DNA of 64,000 nt from Chromatiales bacterium 21-64-14 (GTDB taxonomy: Bacteria > Pseudomonadota > Gammaproteobacteria > 21-64-14). The notes beneath the pieces are model-generated. The model was not told the DNA's origin, made no database searches, and saw only the letters and a program-made list of their open reading frames with translations. Position numbers and translations under genes: made by a program. Position 1 is the first letter of the stretch. Each line of letters opens with the position of its first letter. The stretch spans positions 18,742-82,741 of the forward strand of contig NCBI01000006.1 in the NCBI GenBank assembly GCA_002255365.1, given 5' to 3'. Of the stretch, positions 13,991 through 30,908 are shown piece by piece.

Positions 13991-14207
13991 GTGGCGGGTT
14001 CGGTGACCTTGGTCGTCGGTCGGGCGCCGGGGCCCGGCGGCGTGTGCAGGGAGCGCCATTCGCGTCCCCGAGACATGACTATATCATGACGGCCGTGGCC
14101 GCCGGCGTCGGCGCGGGTCCGGGGGTAGCGGAGCGGCGGGGGCCTCCAAGCGTAAAACATTGCACTGGTGTGTGCTTGCCATCCCAACGACGACGAACGG
14201 TGGATAT

Positions 14208-17873: not shown

Positions 17874-20405
17874 TCAGTTCGGACCCCGGCGCCGCCCGCC
17901 CTTGACCTGCTGACGGCATTTTCGCAGTGCCGCGGCCATGGCGGCGCCGTCGCTGTAGCGTTTTTTCGGGTCTTTTTGCAGGGCGGTGTTGATAACCCGG
18001 CCGACGCAGGCGGGCAGGCCACGGCGCTGCTTGCGGATGTCCACGTGACGCTGGTGAGCGATACGGTACATCAAGGTCGCCAGCGAATCCCCGGTAAACG
18101 GCAGTTGGGCGGTGAGCAGCTGATACAGGGTGACACCTAGGGAATACAGGTCCGTCGCCCCGTCCACCCGGTCTCCCGCCACCTGTTCCGGCGACATATA
18201 GGACGGGCTCCCCAACAGGGTTCCGGTGCGGGTGTGATGGCTGTCAGTCAGGGAAGCAATACCGAAGTCGGTCACTTTGATGTTCCCACCATCGCAGGGG
18301 TAGAGGATGTTCCCCGGTTTGATGTCGCGGTGGACCACGCCGCGGTGATGGGCGTAGTCCAATGCGTCCGCCACCTGTGCCCCGACGTCCAGCACTTCTC
18401 CCACGGGCAGGCGCCGGTCCGGTGCCGTGAACGACTCGAGGTTTTCCCCCTCCACGTAGTCCATGGCGATGTAGGCCACGTCGTGCTCTTCACCGACGTC
18501 ATAGATTGTCACGATGTTGGGGTGATCGAGCCGCCCGGCGGCCTGGGCCTCCTGCAGGAAACGCTGTTCGGCCGCCTGCAGGGCGCTGCCTTCGAACTCC
18601 TGGGACAATGCCAGGGTCTTGATGGCCACCGGCCGTCCGATCTTCGGGTCGGCGCCCAGGTAGACCATCCCCATGGTGCCCTTGCCCAGCTCGCGTTCCA
18701 GGCGGTACCGCCCGAGCATGGGTTTCTCCACCCGCGGATCGTTCATCACCAAGGTCTTGGTAGCCCCGAGTCCTACTCCGGCCCCGGCCCCGGCCGCGGA
18801 CGGAAAGTGTTCGGCGACGGATGCCAAGCGCCCGTGGCGCTCCCGTATGTCCCGGTACGCAGCGTCGTGACGGGCGATCCGGGCGTAGACCGCCATGGCC
18901 TTAGGGAACTGGCGGCGGCGCTCGAACTCCTGTCCCAATGAATACAGGGATTCCACCACGGCTGCATCCAGCGGGCAGCGGCACAGGATCTCGAACGCCT
19001 CGTCGAGTCGTCCCTGAGTCTGGAGCGCGGCGTGGGCGGCGGCGACGATTCCACGCATCCGGTGTCCCACCGCGAGCACCATTTGGGTCGTCACCAGGAA
19101 TACCGCCGGTAGTGTCAGGGGCAGCCACAGCAGATGGGTTACGAGTGCGAGCACTTCGGCGTTGAGCAGCAGCAGGGCGAGCGCGCCGCTCAGCCACAGG
19201 CCGCGGCGCCCGTGCATGGCGGAAGGCAGAAGCAGCAGCCATAGCGCCAGCAGGAGAATCAGGGCGCGCTGTGCTCCGAAGAACCACGTCGGTACGGTGA
19301 TACCGGTGCCGTTCAACAGGCTGTCCACCACCGCGGCGTTCCAGGTAACCGGGGTATAGCGCAGCCCCCCGACACCCGGGAACGGCGTCATCTGGTCGGG
19401 CGCGGTGAGACCCACGAGCACGATCCGCTGCCGCAACCGGCTCGCTGGAACCTCGCCTGCCCACCAGCGTGCCAGCGAATAGACAGGTACCGCGAGGCCG
19501 CCGCGGGTATCCCGGGGCGGCTGCGGATACCACCGATAACCCGGCCCTGTGCGGCGCATGAGCTGGCCGATCTGGATCCCACGACCCGGCATCGGTACCA
19601 CGGCGCCCATCGGCATCTCTACCGCCTGGGCCGCGAGCCGCAGCGCGAAGGATGGGAGGCGTTGACCGTCCACCCGGGGGAGCAGCGCGGCGCCCCGCGC
19701 GCGGCGTTGCTGCGTGTGGACCAGGCCTACGCCCGCCGCGCCGCGCATCAGGGACTCGAGGGGTGCGCGTACCACCTGGGGCGGGGTGCCAGGTGGCGCC
19801 AGGAAGGGTCGCAACAGCGTGGGGTAGGGGGGCGGCAGCAGGTCCCGAGCGGTCACCACTGCGGATTGCAAGGCGCCGGGCAGCGGCCGCGTTTCAGAGG
19901 TGGTGTGACCGTAGGCCGCGAGTATGACATTCCGCGTTTCCGCGAGGGCTTGTGCCAGTACGGTATCGGGGTCGGCATGGGCCAGCCATGCACGCACCTC
20001 CCGGGCCCCCGCGCTGTTCATCGTCTGCGCGTCGGCGCGCAGCTGCGCGAGACCCGGCGGTGTCTGGGATCCCGCGAGGGGGAGCAGCAGGCCTACGGCC
20101 CGGGGGTGGACGTCTTGCAGGCGCGTGACGATCCCGGCCAGCAAATCGTGCGGCCAGGGCCACGGACCCATGCGGGCGAGGGTGGCGGTATCGATGGCCA
20201 ACACCGCAACCGCGGCGGAATCCGGCGCAGGGGGCAGGAGGCGCGCGGCGAGTTCGTAGGCACGGTCTTCCACAGATTGCAAGGCGGCCGTGTAGGTGCC
20301 GAGCACCATGCAGCCGGCGGCAATGACAATCAGGAACCGGTGGTGGGTCCAGAGGGCAGGTCGCACAGGTGGGCCGTCCTGACGGTGCCGGGCGCCGAGA
20401 CGCAT
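17874..20405 (-). CDS. CHASE2 sensor domain Ser/Thr protein kinase
   Basis: N-terminal CHASE2-like periplasmic region flanked by TM helices; C-terminal Hanks kinase (GKGTMGMVY, VAIK, HRDIKPGNIL, DFG, SPEQ). Confidence 0.75.
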   Translation of the reverse strand: MRLGARHRQDGPPVRPALWTHHRFLIVIAAGCMVLGTYTAALQSVEDRAYELAARLLPPAPDSAAVAVLAIDTATLARMGPWPWPHDLLAGIVTRLQDVHPRAVGLLLPLAGSQTPPGLAQLRADAQTMNSAGAREVRAWLAHADPDTVLAQALAETRNVILAAYGHTTSETRPLPGALQSAVVTARDLLPPPYPTLLRPFLAPPGTPPQVVRAPLESLMRGAAGVGLVHTQQRRARGAALLPRVDGQRLPSFALRLAAQAVEMPMGAVVPMPGRGIQIGQLMRRTGPGYRWYPQPPRDTRGGLAVPVYSLARWWAGEVPASRLRQRIVLVGLTAPDQMTPFPGVGGLRYTPVTWNAAVVDSLLNGTGITVPTWFFGAQRALILLLALWLLLLPSAMHGRRGLWLSGALALLLLNAEVLALVTHLLWLPLTLPAVFLVTTQMVLAVGHRMRGIVAAAHAALQTQGRLDEAFEILCRCPLDAAVVESLYSLGQEFERRRQFPKAMAVYARIARHDAAYRDIRERHGRLASVAEHFPSAAGAGAGVGLGATKTLVMNDPRVEKPMLGRYRLERELGKGTMGMVYLGADPKIGRPVAIKTLALSQEFEGSALQAAEQRFLQEAQAAGRLDHPNIVTIYDVGEEHDVAYIAMDYVEGENLESFTAPDRRLPVGEVLDVGAQVADALDYAHHRGVVHRDIKPGNILYPCDGGNIKVTDFGIASLTDSHHTRTGTLLGSPSYMSPEQVAGDRVDGATDLYSLGVTLYQLLTAQLPFTGDSLATLMYRIAHQRHVDIRKQRRGLPACVGRVINTALQKDPKKRYSDGAAMAAALRKCRQQVKGGRRRGPN

Positions 20406-20538
20406 GCGCGCCGCAGCTTACGATCGGCATTGTGCCTGGCCGAGGGCACCGGTGCAGCGACCGGGTTCACAGGCCAGCGGGTTCCAGGCCAGGGCATGGC
20501 GATCTGAGCCGTGCCCCGACCTGGGTCCCGGTCCCCGG

Positions 20539-21246
20539 TTAGTCGGCCTTGGTGACCGGTTTCGCCGGCGGCTTGATGGACAGCAGATCGATGTCAAATA
20601 CCAAAGTCTGATTCGGACCGATCGCATCCCCCGCGCCGCGCGCGCCATAGGCGAGTTTACCGGGGATCACGACCTGCCACTTGGAACCCACGGGCATCTG
20701 TTTCAGCGCTTCCTGCCAACCGGGGATTACTTGTCCGACCGGGATCTCAGCGGGTTCGCCGCGCTTGTAGGAACTGTCGAATTCGGTACCGTTCGGCAGG
20801 GTTCCCCGATAGTTCACCACCACTGTGTCCCCGGCCGTGGGCTTCGGGCCGGTACCTTTGTGCAGTACCTTATATTGCAGACCGTCGGGCAGTTCCACCA
20901 CGCCCTTCTTCTTCCGGTTGGCCGCGAGGAAGGCCTCACCCGCCTTCTCGTTTTTCTCTGCCGCCATGGTCCGTTCGGCGATCTTCTTTTTCTGGAATTC
21001 CATTACCGCAACCTGCATCTGCTTAGCGGTGAGCTTGGGGGTCGCCCCGGAGAGCACGTCCCCGACCGCCAAGCTGAGGGCCTTGACGTCCAGATCCACG
21101 CCTTGGTCCTTCAGATTGTGGCCGATCTGGAACCCGATGGCGTAGCTCAGCCGCTCCTTCTCGGTCTTCAGACCGGCGGCGCCCTGAGCCCATGCCCCCA
21201 GCGGGAGGGTCGTAGCCAGGAATGCCAGGAGAAGTTTCTTTTTCAT
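20539..21246 (-). CDS. fkpA: FKBP-type peptidyl-prolyl cis-trans isomerase (periplasmic, FkpA-like)
   Basis: Signal peptide; N-terminal dimerisation helix; FKBP domain (GLQYKVL..G.G..P...D.V.V.Y.G.L.NG..FDSS). Confidence 0.8.
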   Translation of the reverse strand: MKKKLLLAFLATTLPLGAWAQGAAGLKTEKERLSYAIGFQIGHNLKDQGVDLDVKALSLAVGDVLSGATPKLTAKQMQVAVMEFQKKKIAERTMAAEKNEKAGEAFLAANRKKKGVVELPDGLQYKVLHKGTGPKPTAGDTVVVNYRGTLPNGTEFDSSYKRGEPAEIPVGQVIPGWQEALKQMPVGSKWQVVIPGKLAYGARGAGDAIGPNQTLVFDIDLLSIKPPAKPVTKAD

Positions 21247-21889
21247 GATGTCCCCTCAATGGTTGCGAAGTCCGGCGGCGCGCGGGTCGCGTGCGGCGCC
21301 ATGATGAGACCGCAGGCGGATTCGGCGTGGCCTCCCTGGGCCGCCGTGCCCCGGCGTCGGCACCGCGCTATGGTCCCATAACTGAAGCTCCGATCCAAGG
21401 GAGCGGCGTGCCGTTCCGGCGGCCCTGGTACGCTTTACCAGTGAATTCAATAATAAATTGAATTATATATGGATAATTATCAGTAATTATCAAAGAAGCG
21501 GTATAGGCGCGGTGGCAGGTAATGCTCAAGGGTGCCCGACCGGGCGCCGGCACGCGGCAGGGGGATGGGTAACCCACTCGGCGCGGAGGTGGCGCCATGC
21601 ACACGCGGTACTAGATGCCGGAGGACGTTGGCCTTCGGCTCCCGGGCGATCTGCGGTTCTCGTTCCGGGAGAGGCTCCGGGTAGTCCAGCGCTATCTGCG
21701 CGAAGTGCGCCGCGGCCAGCCGGTGATCGGCTTCCCTGGCCACGGGAGAATTCGGGTCCGCGCGGTCTGAACCCCGCTTCACGCCCGTCTGGTTCGGTGC
21801 CGCGCCAGCGTTGCGCGGGCCGCGGTATGTCATGACTTTTAAATATACAGCAGTTACCATGAAATATTTGTGGTCGGCGATAGGACGCC

Positions 21890-23962
21890 ATGGACATCAT
21901 CGACCTGAAGCAGCCAGAACTCTATTTCAATCGTGAACTGAGCCTGTTGGAATTCAGCGACCGCGTATTGGAACAGACCAAGGATGAGACGGCGCCACTC
22001 ATTGAGCGGCTCCGCTTCCTGTGTATCGCCAGTACCAACCTCGACGAATTCTTCGAGATCCGCGTCGCTGGGCTCAAGCAGCGTGCGGAACTGGGCGCAG
22101 TGCAATCCGGGCCCGACAACCGCACTCCCCAGGAGGTGCTGAAGGCAATCAGCGCCAAGGCGCGGAGATTGGTGGATGAACAGTACCGCGTCCTCAACGA
22201 TGTGCTGATCCCGCGGCTCGCCGAGCAGAACATCCGTTTCATCCGCCGTACGGAATGGACCGAGCCTCAGGAGGCATGGGTACGCAAGTACTTTGAAGAA
22301 AGTCTGCTGCCGGTGCTTTCCCCGCTGGGCTTGGATCCGGCTCACCCGTTTCCGCGTATTCTGAACAAGAGCCTCAATTTCATCGTATCTTTGGAGGGCA
22401 AGGACGCCTTCGGGCGCGGTGCCCAGGTGGCGGTGGTTCAGGCCCCGCGGGCGCTGCCGCGCATCATCCAGTTGCCTCCGGAGGACACCGGAGGCGGGCC
22501 TTGTGACTTCGTGTTCCTGTCTTCCGTCATACATGCCTTCATCGATCAGCAGTTCACCGGCATGAAGGTCAACGGTTGTTATCAGTTCCGGGTCACGCGC
22601 AACAGCGACCTGTTCGTGGACGAGGAGGAAATCGACGACCTGTTGCGTGCGGTCGAGGGCGAATTGGCCTCGCGCCGCTACGGGGCGGCAGTGCGCCTGG
22701 AGGTCGCCCATGACTGCCCGGACGACATGGTGGATTATTTGCTGAATAAATTTCAGCTCGGCCGCGACGACCTGTATCAGGTCAACGGGCCGGTGAATCT
22801 GAACCGCCTGTCCGCCGTCTGCGACCTCGTGGACCGTCCGGATCTCAAGTATCCCGGTTTCAGCTCCAGTCTCCCGGCGCGCCTCATGGGCAACCCGGAC
22901 TTGTTCGAAGTGCTGCGCCGTCAGGATATGTTGCTGCACCATCCGTTCGAGTCGTTCCTGCCGGTCATCGACCTCCTGCGTCAAGCCGCATCCGATCCCG
23001 ACGTGCTCGCCATCAAGCAGACTCTTTATCGCACGGGCCCGGAATCCGCGGTGGTGGATGCCTTGGTGGCCGCCGCCCAGGCGGCCAAGGAAGTCACCGT
23101 GATCATCGAGTTGCGGGCGCGCTTCGACGAGGCCGACAATATCGGGTTGGCCACTCGCCTGCAGGAGGCGGGCGCACATGTGGTCTACGGGATCGTCGGG
23201 TTCAAGACCCACGCCAAGATGATGCTGGTGGTGCGGCGCGAGGGGCGCGTGCTGCGTCGCTATGTGCATCTCGGTACCGGAAACTATCATCCCCGGACCG
23301 CGCGGCTGTATACGGATTACGGTTTGTTTACCGCCGATCCGGTGATCGGTGAAGATGTCCACCGGATCTTCCTGCAGCTTACCAGCGTGGGTCGGGCGTC
23401 GAAGATCCGCAAGATCCTCCAGTCCCCGTTCACCCTCCACGAGGGTATGCTCGCGCGGATCGACCGGGAGACCCGGAACGCCGCGGAAGGGCGCGCTGCG
23501 CGCATCATCGTCAAGCTCAATTCGCTGGTGGAGCCGCAGATCATCCAAGCGCTCTACAAGGCCTCCATGGCCGGGGTGCGTGTCGACCTGATCGTGCGCG
23601 GTATCTGCTGCCTGCGCCCCGGAGTTCCGGGGGTGTCGGATCGGATTCGCGTGCGCTCGGTGGTCGGGCGTTTTCTCGAACATACCCGGGTGTATTTCTT
23701 CCACAACGGCGGTGAGCCGGAAGTGTTCTGTGCCAGTGCCGACTGGATGGAGCGCAATTTTTTTCGCCGCGTGGAAGTCTGCTTCCCGATTGAATCGCGC
23801 GCGTTGCGCGAGCGGGTGGTGAAGGAACTCAAACTCTATCTCAAGGACAACACCCAGGCATGGGTGCTCCAGTCCGACGGGTCCTATCAGCGGCGTACCC
23901 CCCGGGGCGGGAGCGCGCCGTTCTCCGTTCAGCAGGCCCTTCTGGCCAGCTTGGCCGGTTAA
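21890..23962 (+). CDS. ppk: polyphosphate kinase 1
   Basis: Colinear with PPK1: ELYFNRELSLLEFNRRVL N-terminus; two PLD-like HKD regions; 690 aa. Confidence 0.9.
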   Translation: MDIIDLKQPELYFNRELSLLEFSDRVLEQTKDETAPLIERLRFLCIASTNLDEFFEIRVAGLKQRAELGAVQSGPDNRTPQEVLKAISAKARRLVDEQYRVLNDVLIPRLAEQNIRFIRRTEWTEPQEAWVRKYFEESLLPVLSPLGLDPAHPFPRILNKSLNFIVSLEGKDAFGRGAQVAVVQAPRALPRIIQLPPEDTGGGPCDFVFLSSVIHAFIDQQFTGMKVNGCYQFRVTRNSDLFVDEEEIDDLLRAVEGELASRRYGAAVRLEVAHDCPDDMVDYLLNKFQLGRDDLYQVNGPVNLNRLSAVCDLVDRPDLKYPGFSSSLPARLMGNPDLFEVLRRQDMLLHHPFESFLPVIDLLRQAASDPDVLAIKQTLYRTGPESAVVDALVAAAQAAKEVTVIIELRARFDEADNIGLATRLQEAGAHVVYGIVGFKTHAKMMLVVRREGRVLRRYVHLGTGNYHPRTARLYTDYGLFTADPVIGEDVHRIFLQLTSVGRASKIRKILQSPFTLHEGMLARIDRETRNAAEGRAARIIVKLNSLVEPQIIQALYKASMAGVRVDLIVRGICCLRPGVPGVSDRIRVRSVVGRFLEHTRVYFFHNGGEPEVFCASADWMERNFFRRVEVCFPIESRALRERVVKELKLYLKDNTQAWVLQSDGSYQRRTPRGGSAPFSVQQALLASLAG

Positions 23963-24099
23963 CGGGCGGTCTACCCGCCGCGCGACAGTCCGCGCTTCGC
24001 GCCGGTGTTTGTCACACGGGCGCGGCGGCGACCTCAGGACGGCGCCCATACCGGTGGCGAACCTCACCATCCCTCGGGCCCACTCATGAACCATGCGCG

Positions 24100-25605
24100 C
24101 TAGGTGATCGTCAGCGTGTAGCCGTCGGCCTTCAGGTAGTCGGCTTCCTGTTCCAGATCCGCCTGAGTGAGAGGATGCGCTTCCATCCACCCCTCCGGAA
24201 AGCGCAGCGCGATGGTTTTCGCATCGCCTTCCAGCTGTATCTGAGGAGGGAGGTTAGGATTGCGGCTGCGATGCACCACCACGGCGAGGCGCAGGATGAG
24301 GGCAAGGCGGGTTGCGGGTTGAATCCACGCCGCGGGCAGTTCGCGCAACACTGCCACGGGAAACTTGCGCCGATGGGCGCGGACGACGGCCGCAAGCAAT
24401 TGCTGGTCACGGCGCGAGAAACCCGCCAGATCGGCGTTGGCGAGCACGTAGGCGCCATGCTTGTGGTAGCCGCTGTGGGCGATGCCCATGCCGAGCTCGT
24501 GCAGCCGCGCGGCCCAGCTCAGCAGGCGTTCCGAGGCATCCTCGTCCAAGGACCATGTCCCCGCCACTTGGCCGAGAAAGTCCAGTGCGGTGCGTTCCAC
24601 CCGCTGGGCCTGTGCGAGATCGACGTTGTAGCGGCTTGCCAAGTTCGTCACGGTGCGCCCGCGCACATCGTCCTGGGCATGACGCCCGATGAGATCGAAC
24701 AGCAGGCCCTCGCGCAGCGCGCCGTCGGATACCCGCATGCGCTCGATGCCCAGCGCCTCGAAGGTGGCCAGGGCCACGGCGACGCCGCCGGGAAACACCG
24801 GGACGCGCGCCTCGCTCACCCCCGGAAGCTTGATCCGGCCCACATGACCGGCCTTCAGCAGGGCCTCCTGCAACCGGCGCAAGGCGGGTAAGGTGATCCC
24901 GGCGTCGCTCCAGCCCGATTCCAGCACCGCGCGGAGGATGGCGCGCAGGGTACCGGATGCGCCGATCGCGTCGCCCCAGCCGAGCCGCCGGAACGCCTCT
25001 ACGTGGGGTTCCAGTTCAGTGCGCGCCGCCAGCTCCGCGCGGCGCCAGCGCTTGGGGGTGATCTCTCCATCCGCGAAGTGGGCGCGACTCATGGTGACAC
25101 AGCCCATGTAGAGGCTTTCCATGTGTACCGGCTCGAAATGCTCGCCGATGATCAGCTCGGTGCTGCCGCCACCGATATCCATGGCGAGTCGTCGGCTACC
25201 GTCGTCGGCCACGCTGTGGGAGACCCCTGCGTAGACCAGCCGCGCCTCCTCGACCCCGGAGATCACCTCGATGGGGTGCCCGAGCGCCTGTTCGGCGGCG
25301 GCCAGGAATTCCGGGGCATTGCGGGCGCTGCGCAAGGTATTGGTGCCGACCGCGCGCACGCTCCCCGGCGCCATATGGCGCAGCCGCTGGCCGAAGCGTT
25401 CCAGGCAGGCGAGGGCGCGCTGCGCCGCCTCCTGCGTGATGCGGCGCTCCGCGTCCAAGCCACCAGCGAGGCGCACCATGTCATGCAGGCGATCGACCAC
25501 ACTGAGCTGCCCGTCCAGGAGCCGGGCGACCAGCATATGGAAGCTGTTAGAGCCGAGATCGACGGCAGCGACGGTCTCGGGTAGGGCTTTCCTGGCGCGG
25601 GGCAC
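24100..25605 (-). CDS. ppx: exopolyphosphatase (Ppx/GppA family)
   Basis: AAVDLGSNSFHMLVARL, DIGGGSTE, LPGVSEARV motifs colinear with E. coli Ppx; GTG 25605 fits the Ppx N-terminus; the ORF frame extends to 25806. Confidence 0.85.
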   Translation of the reverse strand: MPRARKALPETVAAVDLGSNSFHMLVARLLDGQLSVVDRLHDMVRLAGGLDAERRITQEAAQRALACLERFGQRLRHMAPGSVRAVGTNTLRSARNAPEFLAAAEQALGHPIEVISGVEEARLVYAGVSHSVADDGSRRLAMDIGGGSTELIIGEHFEPVHMESLYMGCVTMSRAHFADGEITPKRWRRAELAARTELEPHVEAFRRLGWGDAIGASGTLRAILRAVLESGWSDAGITLPALRRLQEALLKAGHVGRIKLPGVSEARVPVFPGGVAVALATFEALGIERMRVSDGALREGLLFDLIGRHAQDDVRGRTVTNLASRYNVDLAQAQRVERTALDFLGQVAGTWSLDEDASERLLSWAARLHELGMGIAHSGYHKHGAYVLANADLAGFSRRDQQLLAAVVRAHRRKFPVAVLRELPAAWIQPATRLALILRLAVVVHRSRNPNLPPQIQLEGDAKTIALRFPEGWMEAHPLTQADLEQEADYLKADGYTLTIT

Positions 25606-25699
25606 GGGGAATGTGTTAGCTCGGCGACGTGGCTCGGGTGGATCCAGGGACCATTCTGTCCGCTTGCGCCGCCTCCGGCAAGCACGACCGTGGTGTGGG

Positions 25700-26719
25700 T
25701 TATTCCAAGTCCGCGGTTTGCACCGCCCGCAGCGGCGCCGTGCCGCACGTCGCCAAGCGGCGGGCGCTCGCCCGCACCGATTCCAGTAGCGCAGCGTCTT
25801 GGTCAATGCTTCGCGCGTGCAGTACCACCCAGGCGGTGCGGTGGCGGACTACGGACTGTTGCGCCATCGCCATCAGTCCTGGTAATGGGTCGTCCCGCAG
25901 GGTGCGGCGCAATTGTGCCAGCGGCGCGTCGGCGAGCACCGATTCTATCACGCGCAACCCATGGCGTCCGGTGGCCTTGCGTGTCATCGCGCGCAAGCGC
26001 TCCGCCAGTACATGACTGTCCTGGAGTTCCCCGAGCTGATCTTGGAACGCGCTCAACCCAGCCAGTACCCCGGCGCCACCTTCCAGAGGGCCGGCAAAGG
26101 GTTCCAACAGATAACGCACGCTCTTGACGCGCAGGCGTACCCGGTGCGCCTGCGGATCGTCGGGCGCGGACCGTAGTTCTATCAGCGCACGCTCCAGCGC
26201 GTCGGCATAGCGATGGATTTGCACGCCGGTCGCTTGAGCGAATCCCACTGCCCAGGGGGCGGGTCCCCGGCTTCCGAGTCGCGCCAACAGACGTTCCTCG
26301 ATCCGTGCCCAGGCGGCGGGGACGCGCTTTTGCGCGCGACGCCGGGCCCGGACTTGGCGCTGTTCCCACTGGCCGATAAGCCACTCCACCCCGGGACGTT
26401 CCCGTGGCGCAAGTCCCGGGCGCGGGGATCGCAGCCATCCCGACGCGGCTTCGGCGTTGCGAGCGCCATTAGTGGTGCGCCGCAGGCGTCCCAGCGACCT
26501 CGGGATCTTGTCTCCGGTATTCAGCCACGCGCCGTAGGCCCGCAGTATGACCCGCAGGCGCCGCAGCGCCACGCGGAGATTGTGCAGCGCCTCCGGATCA
26601 TCCGTATCTCGCAGCTGTTTGACGCTGGTGCTCACGTTGCGGATCTGGGCAAGGCACCCGCGTCGCGCCCCGTCGACGGCGCTAAGGTGAAACAGGCCGA
26701 TATCCGCTGGCGTTCTCAT
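25700..26719 (-). CDS. CHAD-domain protein (polyphosphate-granule associated)
   Basis: Helical Arg/His-rich repeats with HxLRVALRRLR-type CHAD motifs; immediately upstream of ppx. Confidence 0.6.
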   Translation of the reverse strand: MRTPADIGLFHLSAVDGARRGCLAQIRNVSTSVKQLRDTDDPEALHNLRVALRRLRVILRAYGAWLNTGDKIPRSLGRLRRTTNGARNAEAASGWLRSPRPGLAPRERPGVEWLIGQWEQRQVRARRRAQKRVPAAWARIEERLLARLGSRGPAPWAVGFAQATGVQIHRYADALERALIELRSAPDDPQAHRVRLRVKSVRYLLEPFAGPLEGGAGVLAGLSAFQDQLGELQDSHVLAERLRAMTRKATGRHGLRVIESVLADAPLAQLRRTLRDDPLPGLMAMAQQSVVRHRTAWVVLHARSIDQDAALLESVRASARRLATCGTAPLRAVQTADLE

Positions 26720-27222
26720 AGTGTCTCGCTGTCGCCCAGCTCGCGGAGCTGGCGCGGCGTGTAGGCCCAGCGGAGCACTGCGGTCCCGAACGCAGGCATG
26801 GCAGGAAACTCGAGGAGACAGGCGGCGCCCTTCTTAAAGATAAACATGGGTGGGTCGGTACGGTCCAGGCACGCGCTGACCCACAAGCCCAGGATGGGTT
26901 CATGCCCTACCAGAATCATGACCGTGCCCGCGGTGTGTGTGGAGACCCATTCCAGCAGATCCTCGCCACAGGTGCCGGGCGCAAGAACGGAGGACTGTTC
27001 CAGCGTAACTCCGCCGTAGGCCTGGGCGATGAGTTCCGCGGTCTGTACCGCCCGTAGCAGGGGGCTGCTGACCAACCGCGTTGGTCCGCGAAGAATTCGC
27101 GCGAGTCCGATGGCGCCGCGGCGCATTTTCGCGCGGCCTTCTGGGGTCAGGGGCCGCGTGGCGTCACCGCCGGGGTCGCGGTCCTCCGCGATCGCATGCC
27201 GTACCACAGCGACCTGCAGCAT
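26716..27222 (-). CDS. sixA: phosphohistidine phosphatase SixA-like (histidine phosphatase superfamily)
   Basis: VVRHAIAE...RPLTPEGR (RHG motif) and C-terminal LVGHEP; 4-nt overlap with the CHAD gene; start ATG 27222. Confidence 0.6.
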   Translation of the reverse strand: MLQVAVVRHAIAEDRDPGGDATRPLTPEGRAKMRRGAIGLARILRGPTRLVSSPLLRAVQTAELIAQAYGGVTLEQSSVLAPGTCGEDLLEWVSTHTAGTVMILVGHEPILGLWVSACLDRTDPPMFIFKKGAACLLEFPAMPAFGTAVLRWAYTPRQLRELGDSETL

Positions 27223-27632
27223 GTGGGGGGTCCGCTCCTTAAGAATGGGGATCATGCCGGGGACCGGGCCGGCGTGCCTGCGGTTCAGTATAGGTAGCGG
27301 TTTTCCGGCCCGTCAAATCGTTCCGCGACGGCGCGCGCCGTTAGGATCAGATTCCCGGAAGGAGCTTACAAAAGGGAGTCCTCGATATTCAACTTCCTAT
27401 GGCCTGCAACAGGTGCATCGTTTACCTTATTCCCAATCCCTCCATCTGTTTGAAATATGCGCAAAATGCCGACTTCCGGCACTTGGCGGGTAGGAATCGG
27501 CTTGCGGCCAACGCGGTCGGCGGAAAAGCGTTCCTCCAGGATGTAATTTCAGTTGCGTTCCGACTGTTGGTCGCTCACCCGTAGCCCGCACTCAGTTATA
27601 TTCTGTACTATTTGCGATTTTTGAGATCGGCT

Positions 27633-28400
27633 CTAGTTCCTTCCTGCAATGACGCCCCCATCCACGTCCCATATTGCGCCCGTTACCCAAGCGGCTTTGC
27701 TGGAAAGCAGAAAGCATATGGTGTTGGCGACATCGTCCGGGACACCGATACGTCCGATGGGATGAAAGGCATTGAATGTCGCCAGTGTGGCGTCGATTTG
27801 CTTCGGGTCGATAAAGGCTTCGTATATGGGTGTCTTGACGACCGCGGGTGAGACTGCATTGACACGGATATTGTGGTCGGCCAGTTCCATGGCCATATGC
27901 TGGGTGAGTGAATGGAGGCCTGCCTTTGCCATTGAATAGGCTGACGACGGCGTGGCTTTAATGGCTTGCTTCGCCCACATGGAGCCGATGTTCACGATCG
28001 AGCCACCGCCATGGGTCACCATGTTCTTCGCGACAGCTTGGGAGATAAAGAATAGGGCCTTGTTCAGCGCCATGTAGGTTTCATAGTCCTCCTCGGAGTG
28101 CTCCAGGAAAGGGGTGGGCTTGAAATAGCCAGCCGCGTTTACCAGATACTTGATATGACGGTTATGATCGTTGGCTAGCGCCGTAACGCGTGCGATGCCG
28201 GAGGGCTCATAGAGGTTCGCTTGCAAGGGCTCGATTACGCCATAGTTGGATAGCGCCGCGATGGCGTGCTCGAGCTTTTTTGCGTCGTTGCCGACGATCA
28301 CTGCTTTAGAGCCGGATTCGAGTAGTTGCTTGGCTACGGCATAACCAATGCCGCTTGAACCGCCCACAATCATTGCCCATGCTGCGTTTGACGTGGTCAT
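27633..28400 (-). CDS. SDR-family oxidoreductase
   Basis: [11 protein letters not shown] Rossmann motif; catalytic YxxxK (YSMAKAGL); lower GC (~55%) than surroundings. Confidence 0.75.
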
Positions 28401-28530
28401 CTTTATCTCCTGGTGAATGCGTAGAGGCCGTGGGCGCCACTTTAGTGGCGGCGGTATACTATTGAAAGCCGGTGCAAAGCCATTGGGTAGGCAGTTTTCG
28501 GCGCATTTTCATGAAAAACATAGGGAATAA

Positions 28531-28854
28531 ATTTTCCCGGACGTCAGTGCCGGAACGTACTGCCCGGATGGTGGAGGCCATTTACGGCGCAAGTGGTTAC
28601 TTGCCGCCTACAATTTACAGGCAAATGAGATCAACCGGCCAGACGAGATGGTTCGATCTGTCGAGGGTCTTTCGACGGAGGTATTGAACGAGTGTCTGAG
28701 GCGGAACGTCGAGTTTGGAATTCTGGAACGGGTTGCATTCGCTGAGGTTCCGCCCCGGGCGGAATATAGGGTGACGCCATTCAAGGAGAAATTCCTTCGC
28801 ATTCTCGATGAGCTTGAGAAGTTGCAGGACAAGATTGAAAGTGAGCCGTTGTAG
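28531..28854 (+). pseudogene. HxlR-family winged-helix regulator lacking a canonical start (probable pseudogene or non-canonical initiation)
   Basis: C-terminal half EVPPRAEYRVTPFKEKFLRILDELEKL matches the HxlR consensus; the upstream in-frame segment (from the stop at 28528) encodes a CPDGG...KW HxlR-like N-term but has no ATG/GTG/TTG; first ATG is 28648; divergent from the SDR as typical for HxlR. Confidence 0.4.
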
Positions 28855-29007
28855 TGACATCGAGCGCAGACGCCGCAAGTTTGGCGTTGGAGTTCCTGCC
28901 GCCCATAGGCGGTTGCCACACGAGCTTCCGGCGACGCTGTTGTTTGCCGGAATGGGAAAAAAAAGGGGAGTCTCGTAGGGTAACGTGCGAATAGTGGAAT
29001 AGGGGGG

Positions 29008-29646
29008 GTGACTGTGATTACGAAAATGACAGGTCAAAAGATGGGGATTGGGGCCGCAACGAGCAACGACCCGCGGCCCAATGGCGACAAATATTCTACG
29101 TGCAGCAATCTCCCATTGCGGGTAGGCCGCAGAATCCGCGCGATTCAGTATCTTGTTGTTGGCCTATCCATCACGGTGGTCCAGCCGGCATGGTCCGCGG
29201 GACCTGATCTGAAGCCCGGGCTTTGGGAATATGCAACGTCCATCAAGGGGGCGGGTGTTGTTATGCCGGACCTGAGCAAACTGCCTCCGGAGCAGCGCGA
29301 GAAATTTCGCAAGGCGTTGATACAAATGGAAACTGAGCCGCGCAACATCGCGCTAAAAATTTGTTTGACCGAGGAGAAGATAAAGAGCATGGATTTCTCT
29401 GCGCGGAAAAAATCTCCCCACTGCACGCAAAGCGTGACGCAGGACGGGTCGGGGAAGTGGACCGAGACGTCGCATTGTGTGACGGACGGGCAGGCACAGG
29501 ATTCGGTTGTTAAAATTCATGTACTGAATCCCACCCATGTGACGAGTGCCGGTCAGGTTACCGTCACACGGGGCGCGCAGGTCCATAAATCGGAATTTCG
29601 TCAGGATGGTAAATGGGTGAGTGCCGATTGCGGCGGCGTGAAATAA
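29008..29646 (+). CDS. hypothetical secreted protein (possibly DUF3617-like)
   Basis: Hydrophobic signal-like segment AIQYLVVGLSITVVQPAWSAGP then PGLWE motif; Cys-containing C-terminal domain; low GC. Confidence 0.35.
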   Translation: MTVITKMTGQKMGIGAATSNDPRPNGDKYSTCSNLPLRVGRRIRAIQYLVVGLSITVVQPAWSAGPDLKPGLWEYATSIKGAGVVMPDLSKLPPEQREKFRKALIQMETEPRNIALKICLTEEKIKSMDFSARKKSPHCTQSVTQDGSGKWTETSHCVTDGQAQDSVVKIHVLNPTHVTSAGQVTVTRGAQVHKSEFRQDGKWVSADCGGVK

Positions 29647-30042
29647 GTAGCCACATGATGCGGGATGGACTTGGTGTTGGAAGGCCCGCAGCGGGTCTAA
29701 GTAGCGTTGGTGGGGCGGTGGGCTGAGCTGAGCGGAGGGCCCGAGTTGGGAACCAACTTACTATCAATACCCGTTGCGCTACGTTCTAACTAATGGCTTG
29801 GCAGCTTCGTCGGAACACGCGGCACTTTTGCGCTTGCAGTTGGCCATGGCGTTGGGCGGAATACGCAGCACGGCACGGGTTTGGATGTATTCGGGCGGCT
29901 TTTGTGCGGAAGTTGTTGGCTGGGCCTGGTACCATTTTCCGCCAGATAACATGACCGCGAATTGGTGTTGGCGTGCGTGGGATTAACGGTAGCAGATGAA
30001 GCGCTCCTCCTCTCCTGCTGGTTCGGAGCGCTTAGAAGTAAA

Positions 30043-30118
<76 letters not shown>

Positions 30119-30182
30119 GGTCGCGGTTTTACCACGTTTCCGCGCGGCGCGCGCTATTCTAGCACCGTCGCCGGGCCGGGTG

Positions 30183-30908
30183 CTAGCGGCGGCGGCGCTG
30201 GAGCAGTCTGCGCTCGAGTTCGGCCACGAACCGTTCCAGGCACTTCTGCTGGGCGCGGGTCAGGTCGAGAAACCGCCCACCGATGCGCAGTTTGCCCCGT
30301 GCCTCGTCGAATCGCACATAGCACACCTCCAGCGCGCTGCGCAGCGGAGGGGCGTCCGGGAGTTGGACCACGCAGGCCGGGACGGTATCGCCCCGTTGCA
30401 GGGTGCCGCTGGCGAGATAGGCGCCGACTCCGCTCACCGACAGATCATGCAACGAGCCATCCAGGAGTTGCTCGGGGCCGAGGGCAAGCTGAACTGGGAT
30501 CACCAAGGACGCGCCGACTTCCACCCGGTAATGGGTGCGCCGCTGGCGATAGCGGACCAGGCCGGGTATGGCCAACTGATAGTAGGCGATGCCCGCGGCG
30601 CCGCCGATCTCCTGCACCGCCGCGGGAAAGCGGATCTCGATGCCGTGCAGCCGGCCGATGACCTGCAGCTTGCGCGCTTCCAACAGGCGCTCATGACCGC
30701 GGCGCGGGTTCAGTTCGTCCAGCAGCAGGTGGCCCAGATCGGGATCCACCTCTAGCAGGGCACTGCTGTAGAGGGATTGTTCGCCGGGGATCGAGACGGA
30801 GAGCAGGGCGTGACTGTCCATCAGGCCGCGGAGCAGGGCCACGATCCGGGTAGGGTCGGTAACGTTCTCTTCGGCCCCGAATGGGTCTTGCCGGGATTGG
30901 TTTTCCAT
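30183..30908 (-). CDS. flgZ: flagellar brake protein YcgR/FlgZ-like (PilZN + PilZ domains)
   Basis: YcgR-type N-terminus (IVALLRGLMDSHALLSV), C-terminal PilZ RxxxR-like region, and position downstream of flgMN as in Pseudomonas FlgZ; start ATG 30908. Confidence 0.7.
   Translation of the reverse strand: MENQSRQDPFGAEENVTDPTRIVALLRGLMDSHALLSVSIPGEQSLYSSALLEVDPDLGHLLLDELNPRRGHERLLEARKLQVIGRLHGIEIRFPAAVQEIGGAAGIAYYQLAIPGLVRYRQRRTHYRVEVGASLVIPVQLALGPEQLLDGSLHDLSVSGVGAYLASGTLQRGDTVPACVVQLPDAPPLRSALEVCYVRFDEARGKLRIGGRFLDLTRAQQKCLERFVAELERRLLQRRRR

What the first reader, a model, noticed from the sequence alone, without database searches (positions are those of the whole stretch)
21890..27222. Polyphosphate locus: ppk1 convergent with a sixA-CHAD-ppx operon
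ppk (+) and ppx (-) converge with a 137-nt spacer. ppx is preceded, in the same operon with 4-nt overlap, by a CHAD-domain protein (polyP-granule binding) and a SixA-like phosphohistidine phosphatase. PPK1 autophosphorylates on histidine. A dedicated His-phosphatase in the ppx operon suggests a regulatory or proof-reading role on phospho-His PPK or polyP-associated proteins.
Basis: partly seen in the sequence, partly recalled or inferred. Interest (0 to 1): 0.5.

Follow-up and report, generated by a model that had tools for sequence, protein, structure and literature searches.

The report
Polyphosphate locus with SixA-like/CHAD gene pair
This is a real polyphosphate gene cluster (ppk1 facing sixA-like, CHAD and ppx) of a kind already noted in the literature; the small histidine phosphatase is consistently tied to polyphosphate genes, most tightly to the polyphosphate-binding CHAD protein, but what it dephosphorylates is still unknown.

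Summary
They are ppk1 (21890-23962, +), ppx (24100-25605, -), a CHAD protein (25700-26719, -) and a 168-aa SixA-like histidine phosphatase (26716-27222, -). The ppk/ppx spacer is 137 nt. The 4-nt ATGA overlap joins sixA-like and CHAD; CHAD and ppx are 94 nt apart.

The phosphatase is not canonical SixA. It scores below the NCBIfam equivalog cut-off and is about 27% identical to E. coli SixA. It keeps all catalytic residues and the SixA fold.

The linkage is conserved. Of 80 species-level relatives, 66 have CHAD, PPX, PPK1 or PPK2 in the fetched flanks, in at least 8 gene orders and three phyla. CHAD lies directly downstream in 51. A Chitinivibrionales MAG and related metagenome contigs fuse CHAD and the SixA-like domain into one protein downstream of ppk1, preceded by ppx in two of the three loci.

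Some relatives sit behind PPK2 instead. Published Sulfolobus operons pair a SixA with PPK3. So phospho-His PPK1 cannot be the only target.

Published papers already list SixA/histidine phosphatases and CHAD as usual neighbours of ppk and ppx. This is therefore a new member of a known kind, with an open biochemical question that can be tested. Interest 0.37.

The parts
21890..23962 (+). ppk1, polyphosphate kinase 1 (690 aa)
   Evidence: It has the Pfam PP_kinase_N, middle, C_1 and C domains. NCBIfam NF003918 scores 1106 bits against a cut-off of 691, and TIGR03705 scores 962 bits. It aligns end to end with solved PPK1 structures, E. coli 1XDO at 8e-122. The KTHAK histidine (His441) and His460 are present.
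23963..24099 (.). 137-nt spacer between the convergent ppk1 and ppx stop codons
   Evidence: Read directly from the sequence. No hairpin-plus-T-run terminator was found. Folding energy is no better than shuffles on either strand, z about -0.7.
24100..25605 (-). ppx, exopolyphosphatase (501 aa from a GTG start)
   Evidence: PF02541 at 8e-73 and PF21447 at 9e-56. TIGR03706 exo_poly_only scores 319 bits against a cut-off of 307. The GTG start at 25605 gives an N-terminus MPRARKALPETVAAVDLGS and equals the NCBI gene call on the identical contig.
25606..25699 (-). 94-nt gap between CHAD and ppx
   Evidence: Read from the sequence. No promoter-like or terminator-like site and no unusual fold, z +1.1. 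Co-transcription of ppx with the two upstream genes is inferred, not shown.
25700..26719 (-). CHAD-domain protein (phosin-like, 339 aa, pI 11.5)
   Evidence: PF05235 at 1.6e-30. Sequence match to the solved CHAD structures 6QV7/3E0S (about 1e-8) and 6QV5 (7.8e-8). The conserved LHxxRVAxRRLR and HRxRxxxKxxRYxxE motifs are shared with 51 relatives.
26716..27222 (-). SixA-like histidine phosphatase (168 aa); its stop overlaps the CHAD start by 4 nt (ATGA)
   Evidence: PF00300 at 5e-9. TIGR00249 sixA scores 55.9 bits, below the 74.5 cut-off. Arg8, His9, Arg23, Arg57 and His107 are invariant in the alignment with E. coli SixA. The AF2 model has pLDDT 91. Foldseek gives TM 0.86 to Alr0221 (3F2I) and 0.79 to E. 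coli SixA (1UJB).
27235..27240 (-). AAGGAG Shine-Dalgarno-like motif, 12 nt upstream of the sixA-like ATG
   Evidence: Read from the sequence.
27287..27316 (-). Sigma-70-like promoter candidate TTGACG-18-TATACT, about 65 nt upstream of sixA-like
   Evidence: It matches 10 of 12 consensus positions and is the only such site in 21200-27800. One site is what shuffles give (mean 1.4), so only its position is suggestive.

Best explanation
The locus is a polyphosphate (polyP) metabolism cluster. PPK1 makes polyP and Ppx degrades it from the ends. The translationally coupled pair sixA-like/CHAD forms an accessory module that works at polyP.

Proposed mechanism:
- The very basic CHAD protein (pI 11.5) binds polyP and has no catalytic activity. 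This is established for the family, not for this protein.
- CHAD serves as the targeting or substrate-recruiting partner for the SixA-like enzyme.
- The enzyme uses His9 as nucleophile, with Arg8, Arg23, Arg57 and His107, to take a phosphoryl group from a substrate on or made from polyP and release it as phosphate.

My preferred substrate class is a phosphoanhydride: a polyP chain end, a short oligophosphate, or a nucleoside oligophosphate made by PPK side reactions. This is by analogy with the other catalytic partners of CHAD (the TTM/CYTH triphosphatase in YgiF, and Ppx/HD domains) and with the Nudix gene that occupies the same operon position in Streptomyces. A phosphohistidine protein on the granule is the main alternative.

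Shown: gene identities, intact catalytic residues, the fold, conserved linkage, and gene fusion. Inferred: co-transcription, physical association of the SixA-like protein with CHAD, and the substrate.

Confidence 0.6 applies to the statement that this is a polyP-linked accessory phosphatase working with CHAD. Within that, I put roughly 0.35 on a phosphoanhydride or small-molecule substrate, 0.25 on phospho-His PPK1, and the rest on other phosphoproteins or something not considered.
For: - Linkage: 66 of 80 species-level relatives, and 41 of 46 with full flanks, have CHAD, PPX, PPK1 or PPK2 in the fetched flanks. They show at least 8 different gene orders in Gemmatimonadota, Gammaproteobacteria and Myxococcota.
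- CHAD is the closest partner. It lies directly downstream in 51 of 80 loci, and all 51 pass Pfam CHAD. The junction overlaps or is 10 nt or less in 49 of 52 junctions scored, with peaks at -8 and -4 nt. Five full-flank loci have CHAD as the only polyP gene in the fetched flanks.
- Gene fusion: CHAD::His_Phos_1 single proteins P0285, P0286 (Chitinivibrionales MAG; 43% identical to P0285 over 97% of its length) and P0287 lie downstream of ppk1 in all three loci. A ppx (or a long uncharacterised ORF in the same position) precedes ppk1 in L087 and L088. Catalytic residues are intact in P0285, the one fusion domain aligned.
- The link does not depend on kinase type. A two-domain PPK2 lies directly upstream in L059, L067 and L069, and about 0.8 kb upstream in L071. 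The Sulfolobus sixA-ppx-PPK3-CHAD operon is published (PMC12995831).
- More distant relatives (about 37% identity) are again wedged as ppk1>sixA>ppx or ppk1>sixA.
- Family knowledge: CHAD binds polyP, lacks enzymatic activity and enhances the YgiF polyPase (PMC6537752).
- Other CHAD fusions seen here are with CYTH and with Ppx_III/HD phosphohydrolase domains.
- The subfamily is basic, median pI 8.7, against 4.45 for E. coli SixA.
Against: - No biochemical data exist for any polyP-linked SixA-like protein, here or in the literature searched.
- The only characterised activities in the SixA clade are on phosphohistidine proteins (ArcB HPt and NPr; my own knowledge). None is on phosphoanhydrides.
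- The cluster already encodes Ppx, so a second polyP-end hydrolase would look redundant.
- Five of 46 full-flank relatives have no polyP gene nearby, and one distant relative is unlinked.
- Basic pI is weak evidence in GC-rich, Arg-rich genomes.
- Co-transcription of ppx with sixA-CHAD across the 94-nt gap is not demonstrated.
- The junction-distance rule favours short distances.
Confidence: 0.6

Rival explanations
1. The SixA-like enzyme is a dedicated phosphohistidine phosphatase that removes the phosphoryl group from autophosphorylated PPK1 (His441 here). This would brake or reset polyP synthesis, or together with PPK1's reverse reaction drain polyP. CHAD would bring the enzyme to the granule where PPK1 works.
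For: - The SixA fold and all catalytic residues are present.
- PPK1 here retains the KTHAK histidine and the second histidine.
- In 24 of 26 relatives with ppk1 upstream, sixA-like starts 0-14 nt after the ppk1 stop.
- Distant relatives are arranged ppk1>sixA(>ppx), with 4-nt overlaps in L093.
- The CHAD::SixA fusions follow ppk1 directly.
- In mycobacterial MutT1 the SixA-like C-terminal domain supports dephosphorylation of phospho-His NDK, although the Nudix domain is the catalytic one (PMC11784022).
Against: - Relatives follow PPK2 (L067, L069 directly; L071 at about 0.8 kb) with no PPK1 in the fetched flanks. PPK2 is a P-loop kinase without a phospho-His intermediate (my own knowledge).
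- Sulfolobus has a SixA in a polyP operon and no PPK1 at all (PMC12995831).
- Five full-flank loci have CHAD but no PPK1 within about 8 kb.
- Hydrolysing a catalytic intermediate would amount to a futile ATPase.
- The PPK1 histidine lies in an enclosed active-site tunnel in the E. coli structure (my own knowledge), which questions access for a protein phosphatase.
Confidence: 0.25
2. The SixA-like enzyme dephosphorylates another phosphohistidine protein connected to phosphate or polyP signalling. Candidates are an HPt domain or histidine kinase, NPr of the nitrogen PTS as for E. coli SixA, NDK, or phosphorylated conserved histidines of CHAD itself.
For: - The known SixA substrates are phosphohistidine proteins (my own knowledge).
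- CHAD histidines were originally proposed as possible phosphoacceptors (Iyer and Aravind 2002, as quoted in PMC6537752).
- His45 and His191 of this CHAD lie in the nearly invariant motifs of 51 relatives.
- Translational coupling and fusion with CHAD.
Against: - No kinase for CHAD is known, and CHAD histidine phosphorylation has never been reported in the papers read.
- PTS-Ntr and ArcB are absent from many of the lineages that carry the module, for example archaea (my own knowledge).
- The protein fails the canonical SixA equivalog cut-off.
Confidence: 0.1
3. The adjacency has no shared mechanism. The SixA-like gene is a housekeeping phosphatase that merely hitch-hikes in a phosphate-regulated operon.
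For: - Five of 46 full-flank relatives and one distant relative are unlinked.
- A Streptomyces Nudix gene in the equivalent position had no phenotype when deleted (PMC8003754).
Against: - The linkage survives at least 8 rearranged gene orders in three phyla.
- It is retained with PPK1, with PPK2 and, in the literature, with PPK3.
- It has been cemented by gene fusion with CHAD.
Confidence: 0.05

Closest known systems
Sulfolobus acidocaldarius polyP operon sixA (saci_2017)-ppx-PPK3 (two dTMPK-like genes)-CHAD (PMC12995831; also Fig. 2 of PMC10892726)
   Same: It has the same accessory set, SixA-type phosphatase, Ppx and CHAD, co-transcribed with the polyP kinase. The authors also list SixA and CHAD among proteins typically associated with PPK1/PPK2, and they flag the role of SixA as unknown.
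   Different: It is archaeal, the kinase is PPK3 rather than PPK1, and the gene order differs. Whether Saci_2017 belongs to the same SixA subfamily was not tested here.
Streptomyces ppk-pptA (CHAD phosin)-SLI_4382 (Nudix) operon (PMC8003754)
   Same: The logic is the same: kinase, CHAD and a small phosphohydrolase, with overlapping or co-transcribed genes. [quoted passage not shown]
   Different: The hydrolase is a Nudix enzyme, not of the histidine-phosphatase fold. The operon is PhoP-controlled there, whereas no E. coli-type Pho box was found here. ppx is not part of it.
E. coli SixA (PDB 1UJB), phosphohistidine phosphatase of ArcB HPt and NPr
   Same: Same minimal histidine-phosphatase fold (TM 0.79) and identical catalytic residues.
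   Different: Only about 27% identical, and below the TIGR00249 equivalog cut-off. The subfamily has its own motif, [LF][KR]KGAACLL, and GHEP. The protein is neutral and the subfamily basic, whereas E. coli SixA is acidic. E. coli sixA is not next to ppk-ppx (my own knowledge).
Alr0221 of Nostoc (PDB 3F2I), structural-genomics SixA-like protein
   Same: It is the closest solved structure, with sequence E 6e-15, TM 0.86 and about 32% identity, and it shares a KK(A)G motif.
   Different: Its function is unknown, and its genomic context was not examined here.
YgiF (TTM/CYTH triphosphatase fused to CHAD)
   Same: A phosphohydrolase is joined to a CHAD polyP-binding module, and CHAD enhances the enzyme's activity (PMC6537752). 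CYTH-CHAD relatives appeared among homologues of this CHAD.
   Different: The catalytic fold differs. In the window the two parts are separate, translationally coupled genes. Here a fusion was found only in a Chitinivibrionales MAG and related metagenome contigs.
Mycobacterial MutT1 (Rv2985): Nudix domain plus SixA-like C-terminal domain
   Same: Its SixA-like domain is a structural neighbour (3FJY, 5GG5, 9CXX). The protein removes phosphate from phospho-His NDK (PMC11784022). It lies beside ppk1 (Rv2984) in M. tuberculosis (my own knowledge, not verified here).
   Different: It is a fusion with Nudix, and the phosphoprotein phosphatase activity was assigned to the Nudix domain. No CHAD is involved.
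Convergent ppk/ppx arrangement of Pseudomonas aeruginosa
   Same: ppk and ppx are transcribed towards each other rather than as the E. coli ppk-ppx operon (my own knowledge, not verified here).
   Different: No sixA-like/CHAD pair upstream of ppx has been described there, to my knowledge.

Membership tests
Polyphosphate kinase 1 (PPK1) | Four-domain architecture (N, head/middle, C1, C2) scoring above the curated cut-offs | tested here: met
   All four Pfam domains are present at E 1e-37 to 1e-70. NF003918 scores 1106 bits against 691, and TIGR03705 scores 962 against 466.
Polyphosphate kinase 1 (PPK1) | Autophosphorylated histidine in the K(T/I)HAK motif and a second conserved histidine | tested here: met
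   His441 (GFKTHAKMM) and His460 (VHLGTGNYH) align with the corresponding motifs of the solved PPK1 9UUH shown; E. coli 1XDO matches at 8e-122.
Exopolyphosphatase Ppx (Ppx/GppA family) | Ppx-GppA ASKHA domains I-II plus domain III, scoring above the exopolyphosphatase model cut-off | tested here: met
   PF02541 at 8e-73 and PF21447 at 9e-56. TIGR03706 scores 319 bits against 307. The E. coli-specific Ppx and GppA equivalogs are both below their cut-offs, so the Ppx versus GppA preference is not settled by sequence.
CHAD / phosin family | CHAD domain above the Pfam gathering score, with similarity to solved CHAD structures | tested here: met
   PF05235 scores 107 bits against 25.6. It matches 6QV7/3E0S and 6QV5 at about 1e-8.
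CHAD / phosin family | Binds polyP and localises to polyP granules | not testable with these tools
   Only indirect evidence is available: pI 11.5 and conserved basic motifs.
Canonical SixA (TIGR00249 equivalog; ArcB/NPr phosphohistidine phosphatase) | Score at or above the equivalog cut-off | tested here: not met
   55.9 bits against a cut-off of 74.5. About 27% identity to E. coli SixA. NCBI names the identical protein 'SixA phosphatase family protein'.
Canonical SixA (TIGR00249 equivalog; ArcB/NPr phosphohistidine phosphatase) | Phosphohistidine-protein phosphatase activity | not testable with these tools
Histidine phosphatase superfamily, branch 1, SixA-like minimal fold | RH(G/A) nucleophile motif, two further arginines and a second histidine; alpha/beta fold without a cap insertion | tested here: met
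   Arg8, His9, Arg23, Arg57 and His107 are invariant. PF00300 scores 36 bits against 21.7. The AF2 model has pLDDT 91, with TM 0.86 to 3F2I, 0.79 to 1UJB and 0.77 to 2RFL.
Conserved polyP neighbourhood 'ppk/ppx + SixA + CHAD' (as described in PMC12995831 and PMC8003754) | The SixA-type gene is adjacent to polyP genes across unrelated lineages | tested here: met
   66 of 80 relatives, and 41 of 46 with full flanks; at least 8 gene orders; CHAD::SixA fusions.

The most novel reading that the evidence does not exclude
The SixA-like/CHAD pair is a two-subunit, polyP-tethered phosphohistidine phosphatase; in some lineages it is one fused protein. It would strip the catalytic phosphoryl group from PPK1, or from the conserved histidines of CHAD itself. 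That would give bacteria a post-translational switch between polyP synthesis and breakdown that has not been described.
Probability: 0.2. Interest if true: 0.7.

Novelty: new member of a known kind. Interest (0 to 1): 0.37.

Why it matters
How bacteria switch between making and consuming polyphosphate is poorly understood, and no post-translational regulator of PPK1 is established. A small phosphatase travels with ppk1, ppk2, ppx and above all CHAD across phyla, and is occasionally fused to CHAD. It is a concrete, cheap-to-test candidate for a missing component of polyP metabolism. It would also give the non-enzymatic CHAD 'phosins' a catalytic partner.

The gene neighbourhood itself is already in the literature. 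The value here is a sharper hypothesis: CHAD, not PPK1, is the constant partner, and the link does not depend on kinase type. It is not a discovery of a new system.

Tried and rejected
- Terminator or structured RNA in the 137-nt ppk/ppx spacer and the 94-nt CHAD/ppx gap: none. Folding energies are within shuffles and there is no Rfam hit in the locus.
- E. coli-type Pho box (CTGTCAT-N4-CTGTCAT, up to 3 mismatches): the only window hit is at 14075, below chance expectation, and there is none near the locus.
- The longer ORF readings were rejected in favour of 25605 and 27222. These readings are ppx from the TTG at 25806, which would overlap CHAD by about 100 nt, and sixA-like from the ATG at 27255. 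The basis is homologue N-termini and the NCBI calls.
- The 20404-21381 (+) ORF upstream of ppk has no Pfam hit. The real gene there is an FKBP-type isomerase on the other strand.
- Fusions among the 150 best 50%-identity representatives of the SixA-like protein: none, all stand-alone proteins of about 165-175 aa. Fusions were found only by querying with a SixA+CHAD concatenation.
- P0269, an apparent SixA::CHAD fusion of 304 aa, was discounted. Its CHAD part is truncated on a short contig, and a frameshift across the normally overlapping genes is the likely cause.
- Literature that could not be reached: the supplementary neighbourhood tables of PMC12995831 are not held, and Iyer and Aravind 2002 is not held. 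No paper links Rv2985 with Rv2984.
- A second SixA paralogue in the window: none was found by tblastn.

Full report
**What is in the sequence**

The region 21890-27222 holds four genes, and domain searches identify all of them.
- ppk1: 21890-23962 (+), 690 aa, with all four PPK1 domains. NF003918 scores 1106 bits against a cut-off of 691. The KTHAK histidine (His441) and His460 align with solved PPK1 structures.
- ppx: its ORF runs 24100-25806 (-). The N-terminus that matches homologues starts at the GTG at 25605, giving 501 aa. It has PF02541 and PF21447, and TIGR03706 scores 319 bits against 307.
- CHAD protein: 25700-26719 (-), 339 aa. PF05235 at 1.6e-30, with sequence matches to the solved CHAD structures 6QV7, 3E0S and 6QV5.
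- Histidine-phosphatase-fold protein: 26716-27222 (-), 168 aa.

An identical 168-aa protein occurs on a contig of a Gammaproteobacteria MAG (GCA_027311285.1), with the same gene order and spacings. NCBI's gene calls there give the same four coordinates.

The 4-nt ATGA overlap lies between the SixA-like gene and CHAD. CHAD and ppx are separated by 94 nt.

Upstream of the SixA-like gene there is an AAGGAG motif, and a TTGACG-18-TATACT promoter-like site at 27316-27287. One such site is no more than shuffles give.

Neither the 137-nt spacer nor the 94-nt gap has a terminator-like hairpin or an unusual fold. There is no E. coli-type Pho box near the locus.

**What the phosphatase is**

- It scores 55.9 bits on the NCBIfam SixA equivalog, below the 74.5 cut-off.
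- It is about 27% identical to E. coli SixA.
- Arg8, His9, Arg23, Arg57 and His107 are invariant in alignments that include E. coli SixA.
- An AlphaFold model has pLDDT 91. It superposes on Alr0221 of Nostoc (3F2I, TM 0.86), on the A. tumefaciens and E. coli SixA structures (TM 0.77-0.79), and on the C-terminal domain of MutT1 proteins.

So it is a catalytically intact member of the SixA-like minimal histidine-phosphatase clade, but not canonical SixA.

Its subfamily carries the motifs GHEP and [LF][KR]KGAACLL. About 2100 clusters at 50% identity match it at E of 1e-10 or better, and the best 150 are all stand-alone proteins of about 165-175 aa.

**Is the linkage conserved?**

A scan of one genome per species returned 80 loci, from Gemmatimonadota, Gammaproteobacteria (Chromatiales, Ectothiorhodospiraceae, Sedimenticola, Thiomargarita, Parabeggiatoa, Halofilum) and Myxococcota. 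I translated all six frames and searched them iteratively with the window's four proteins and a PPK2.
- 66 of 80 loci have CHAD, PPX, PPK1 or PPK2 within the fetched flanks.
- Of the 46 loci with full flanks, 41 (89%) do: CHAD in 35, PPX in 32, PPK1 in 30 and PPK2 in 8.

The gene orders differ:
- ppx>ppk1>sixA>CHAD: 24 loci, three of which carry an extra convergent PPK1-like ORF.
- sixA>CHAD alone: 12.
- sixA>CHAD followed by convergent ppk1 and ppx: 8.
- sixA>ppx: 6.
- The window's own order, sixA>CHAD>ppx facing ppk1: 2 (L004, L005).
- ppk1>sixA>ppx>CHAD: 2, in Polyangiaceae.
- Several singletons.

All 51 ORFs directly downstream of the SixA-like gene pass Pfam CHAD at E of 1e-5 or better. 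The sixA/CHAD junction overlaps or is 10 nt or less in 49 of 52 junctions scored, with peaks at -8 and -4 nt. My rule for picking starts favours short distances.

Three more distant relatives (about 37% identity) gave ppk1>sixA, ppk1>sixA>ppx with 4-nt overlaps on both sides, and one unlinked locus.

**Two observations that bear on mechanism**

First, several loci that at first looked unlinked have a two-domain PPK2. It ends just before the SixA-like gene in L067, L069 and L059, and lies about 0.8 kb upstream in L071. L067, L069 and L071 have no PPK1 in the fetched flanks.

Second, a search with the SixA-like and CHAD sequences joined end to end found natural fusions in the order CHAD then His_Phos_1:
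- P0285, 469 aa.
- P0286, 496 aa, from a Chitinivibrionales MAG; 43% identical to P0285 over 97% of its length.
- P0287, with a 492-aa form.

Each lies downstream of ppk1. In L087 a ppx precedes ppk1, and in L088 a long ORF that was not annotated takes that position; L085 is cut inside ppk1. Catalytic residues are intact in P0285, the one fusion domain I aligned. An apparent fusion in the opposite order (P0269) looks like a frameshift artefact.

Other CHAD fusions seen in the same searches are with CYTH/TTM and with Ppx domain III/HD.

The window's CHAD is very basic (pI 11.5). The SixA-like protein is neutral (pI 6.8) and its subfamily basic (median 8.7). E. coli SixA is acidic (pI 4.45).

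**What is already known**

- A 2026 J Biol Chem paper on archaeal PPK3 describes the Sulfolobus operon sixA-ppx-PPK3-CHAD. [quoted passage not shown]
- A 2024 paper draws the same archaeal cluster (PMC10892726).
- A 2023 paper shows ppk, a phosphohistidine phosphatase and ppx together in a phosphate island of marine HIMB59 (PMC10734472).
- A 2021 Streptomyces study shows a Pho-regulated ppk-pptA(CHAD)-Nudix operon. [quoted passage not shown]
- CHAD domains bind polyP, lack enzymatic activity and enhance the polyPase YgiF (PMC6537752).
- Mycobacterial MutT1, a Nudix domain plus a SixA-like domain, dephosphorylates phospho-His NDK, mainly through its Nudix domain (PMC11784022).

I found no experiment on any polyP-linked SixA-like protein.

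**Interpretation**

The gene identifications and the conserved linkage are solid. The SixA-like gene is a polyP-locus component, and its most constant partner is CHAD. Three things point that way: translational coupling, loci in which CHAD is the only polyP gene within reach, and fusion. The link persists with PPK1, with PPK2 and, in the literature, with PPK3.

The simplest reading is that CHAD tethers or feeds the phosphatase at polyP, as it does for the TTM domain in YgiF. I therefore favour a substrate on or derived from polyP: a chain end, a short oligophosphate, or a nucleoside oligophosphate by-product.

It fits the very frequent ppk1>sixA adjacency and the known chemistry of SixA. It cannot be the general explanation, because the PPK2 and PPK3 contexts lack a phospho-His kinase. 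These tools cannot decide the substrate.

**Verdict**

This is a new member of a known kind of polyP gene neighbourhood with an open, testable biochemical question. Interest 0.37.

Noticed in passing
window 30043-30118 (-), with 28001-30000: A tRNA-Ala(CGC) sits beside the lowest-GC stretch of the window (0.549 against about 0.63). It overlaps a spurious 221-aa ORF at 29996-30661 (+). In a second assembly that encodes the identical SixA-like protein (L002), the DNA beyond the adjacent DUF3617 gene carries a Toprim/AAA_25 primase-like gene instead of the HxlR/PilZ/FlgN genes seen in L001 and L003. This may be an integrated element at the tRNA.
   Followed up: partly
window 17874-20405 (-): An 843-aa protein with an N-terminal CHASE2 sensor domain and a C-terminal eukaryote-type Ser/Thr kinase domain. 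It lies about 1.5 kb upstream of ppk1 on the opposite strand.
   Followed up: no
window 21480-21833 (-) and 21834-21889: A 117-aa ORF with no Pfam hit, called as a gene by NCBI (87 aa in L002). It diverges from ppk1 with only 56 nt between the two start codons, so the ppk1 promoter probably lies inside or overlaps this gene.
   Followed up: no
window 21440-21500: A strikingly AT-rich stretch (aataataaattgaattatatatggataattatcagtaattatcaaag) in an otherwise 64% GC region. It spans the gap downstream of the 117-aa ORF and about 20 nt of that ORF's 3' end, and lies upstream of the FKBP-type gene at 20539-21246 (-).
   Followed up: no
L006 9991-12912, L009 9983-13573, L063 9991-12795 (- strand in locus coordinates): Three Gemmatimonadota relatives with the ppx>ppk1>sixA>CHAD operon carry a second, much longer PPK1-like ORF (about 930-1200 aa). 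It is convergent and lies directly after CHAD.
   Followed up: no
L054 8001-8273 and 8298-8507: In a Sedimenticola MAG the SixA-like gene upstream of ppx is split into two ORFs. This could be a frameshift, a pseudogene or an assembly error.
   Followed up: no
P0288 (Kiritimatiella glycovorans) and P0294 (Terriglobales MAG): Proteins that combine Ppx domain III, an HD domain and CHAD (PF21447+PF01966+PF05235). This is another example of CHAD fused to a polyP-related phosphohydrolase module.
   Followed up: no
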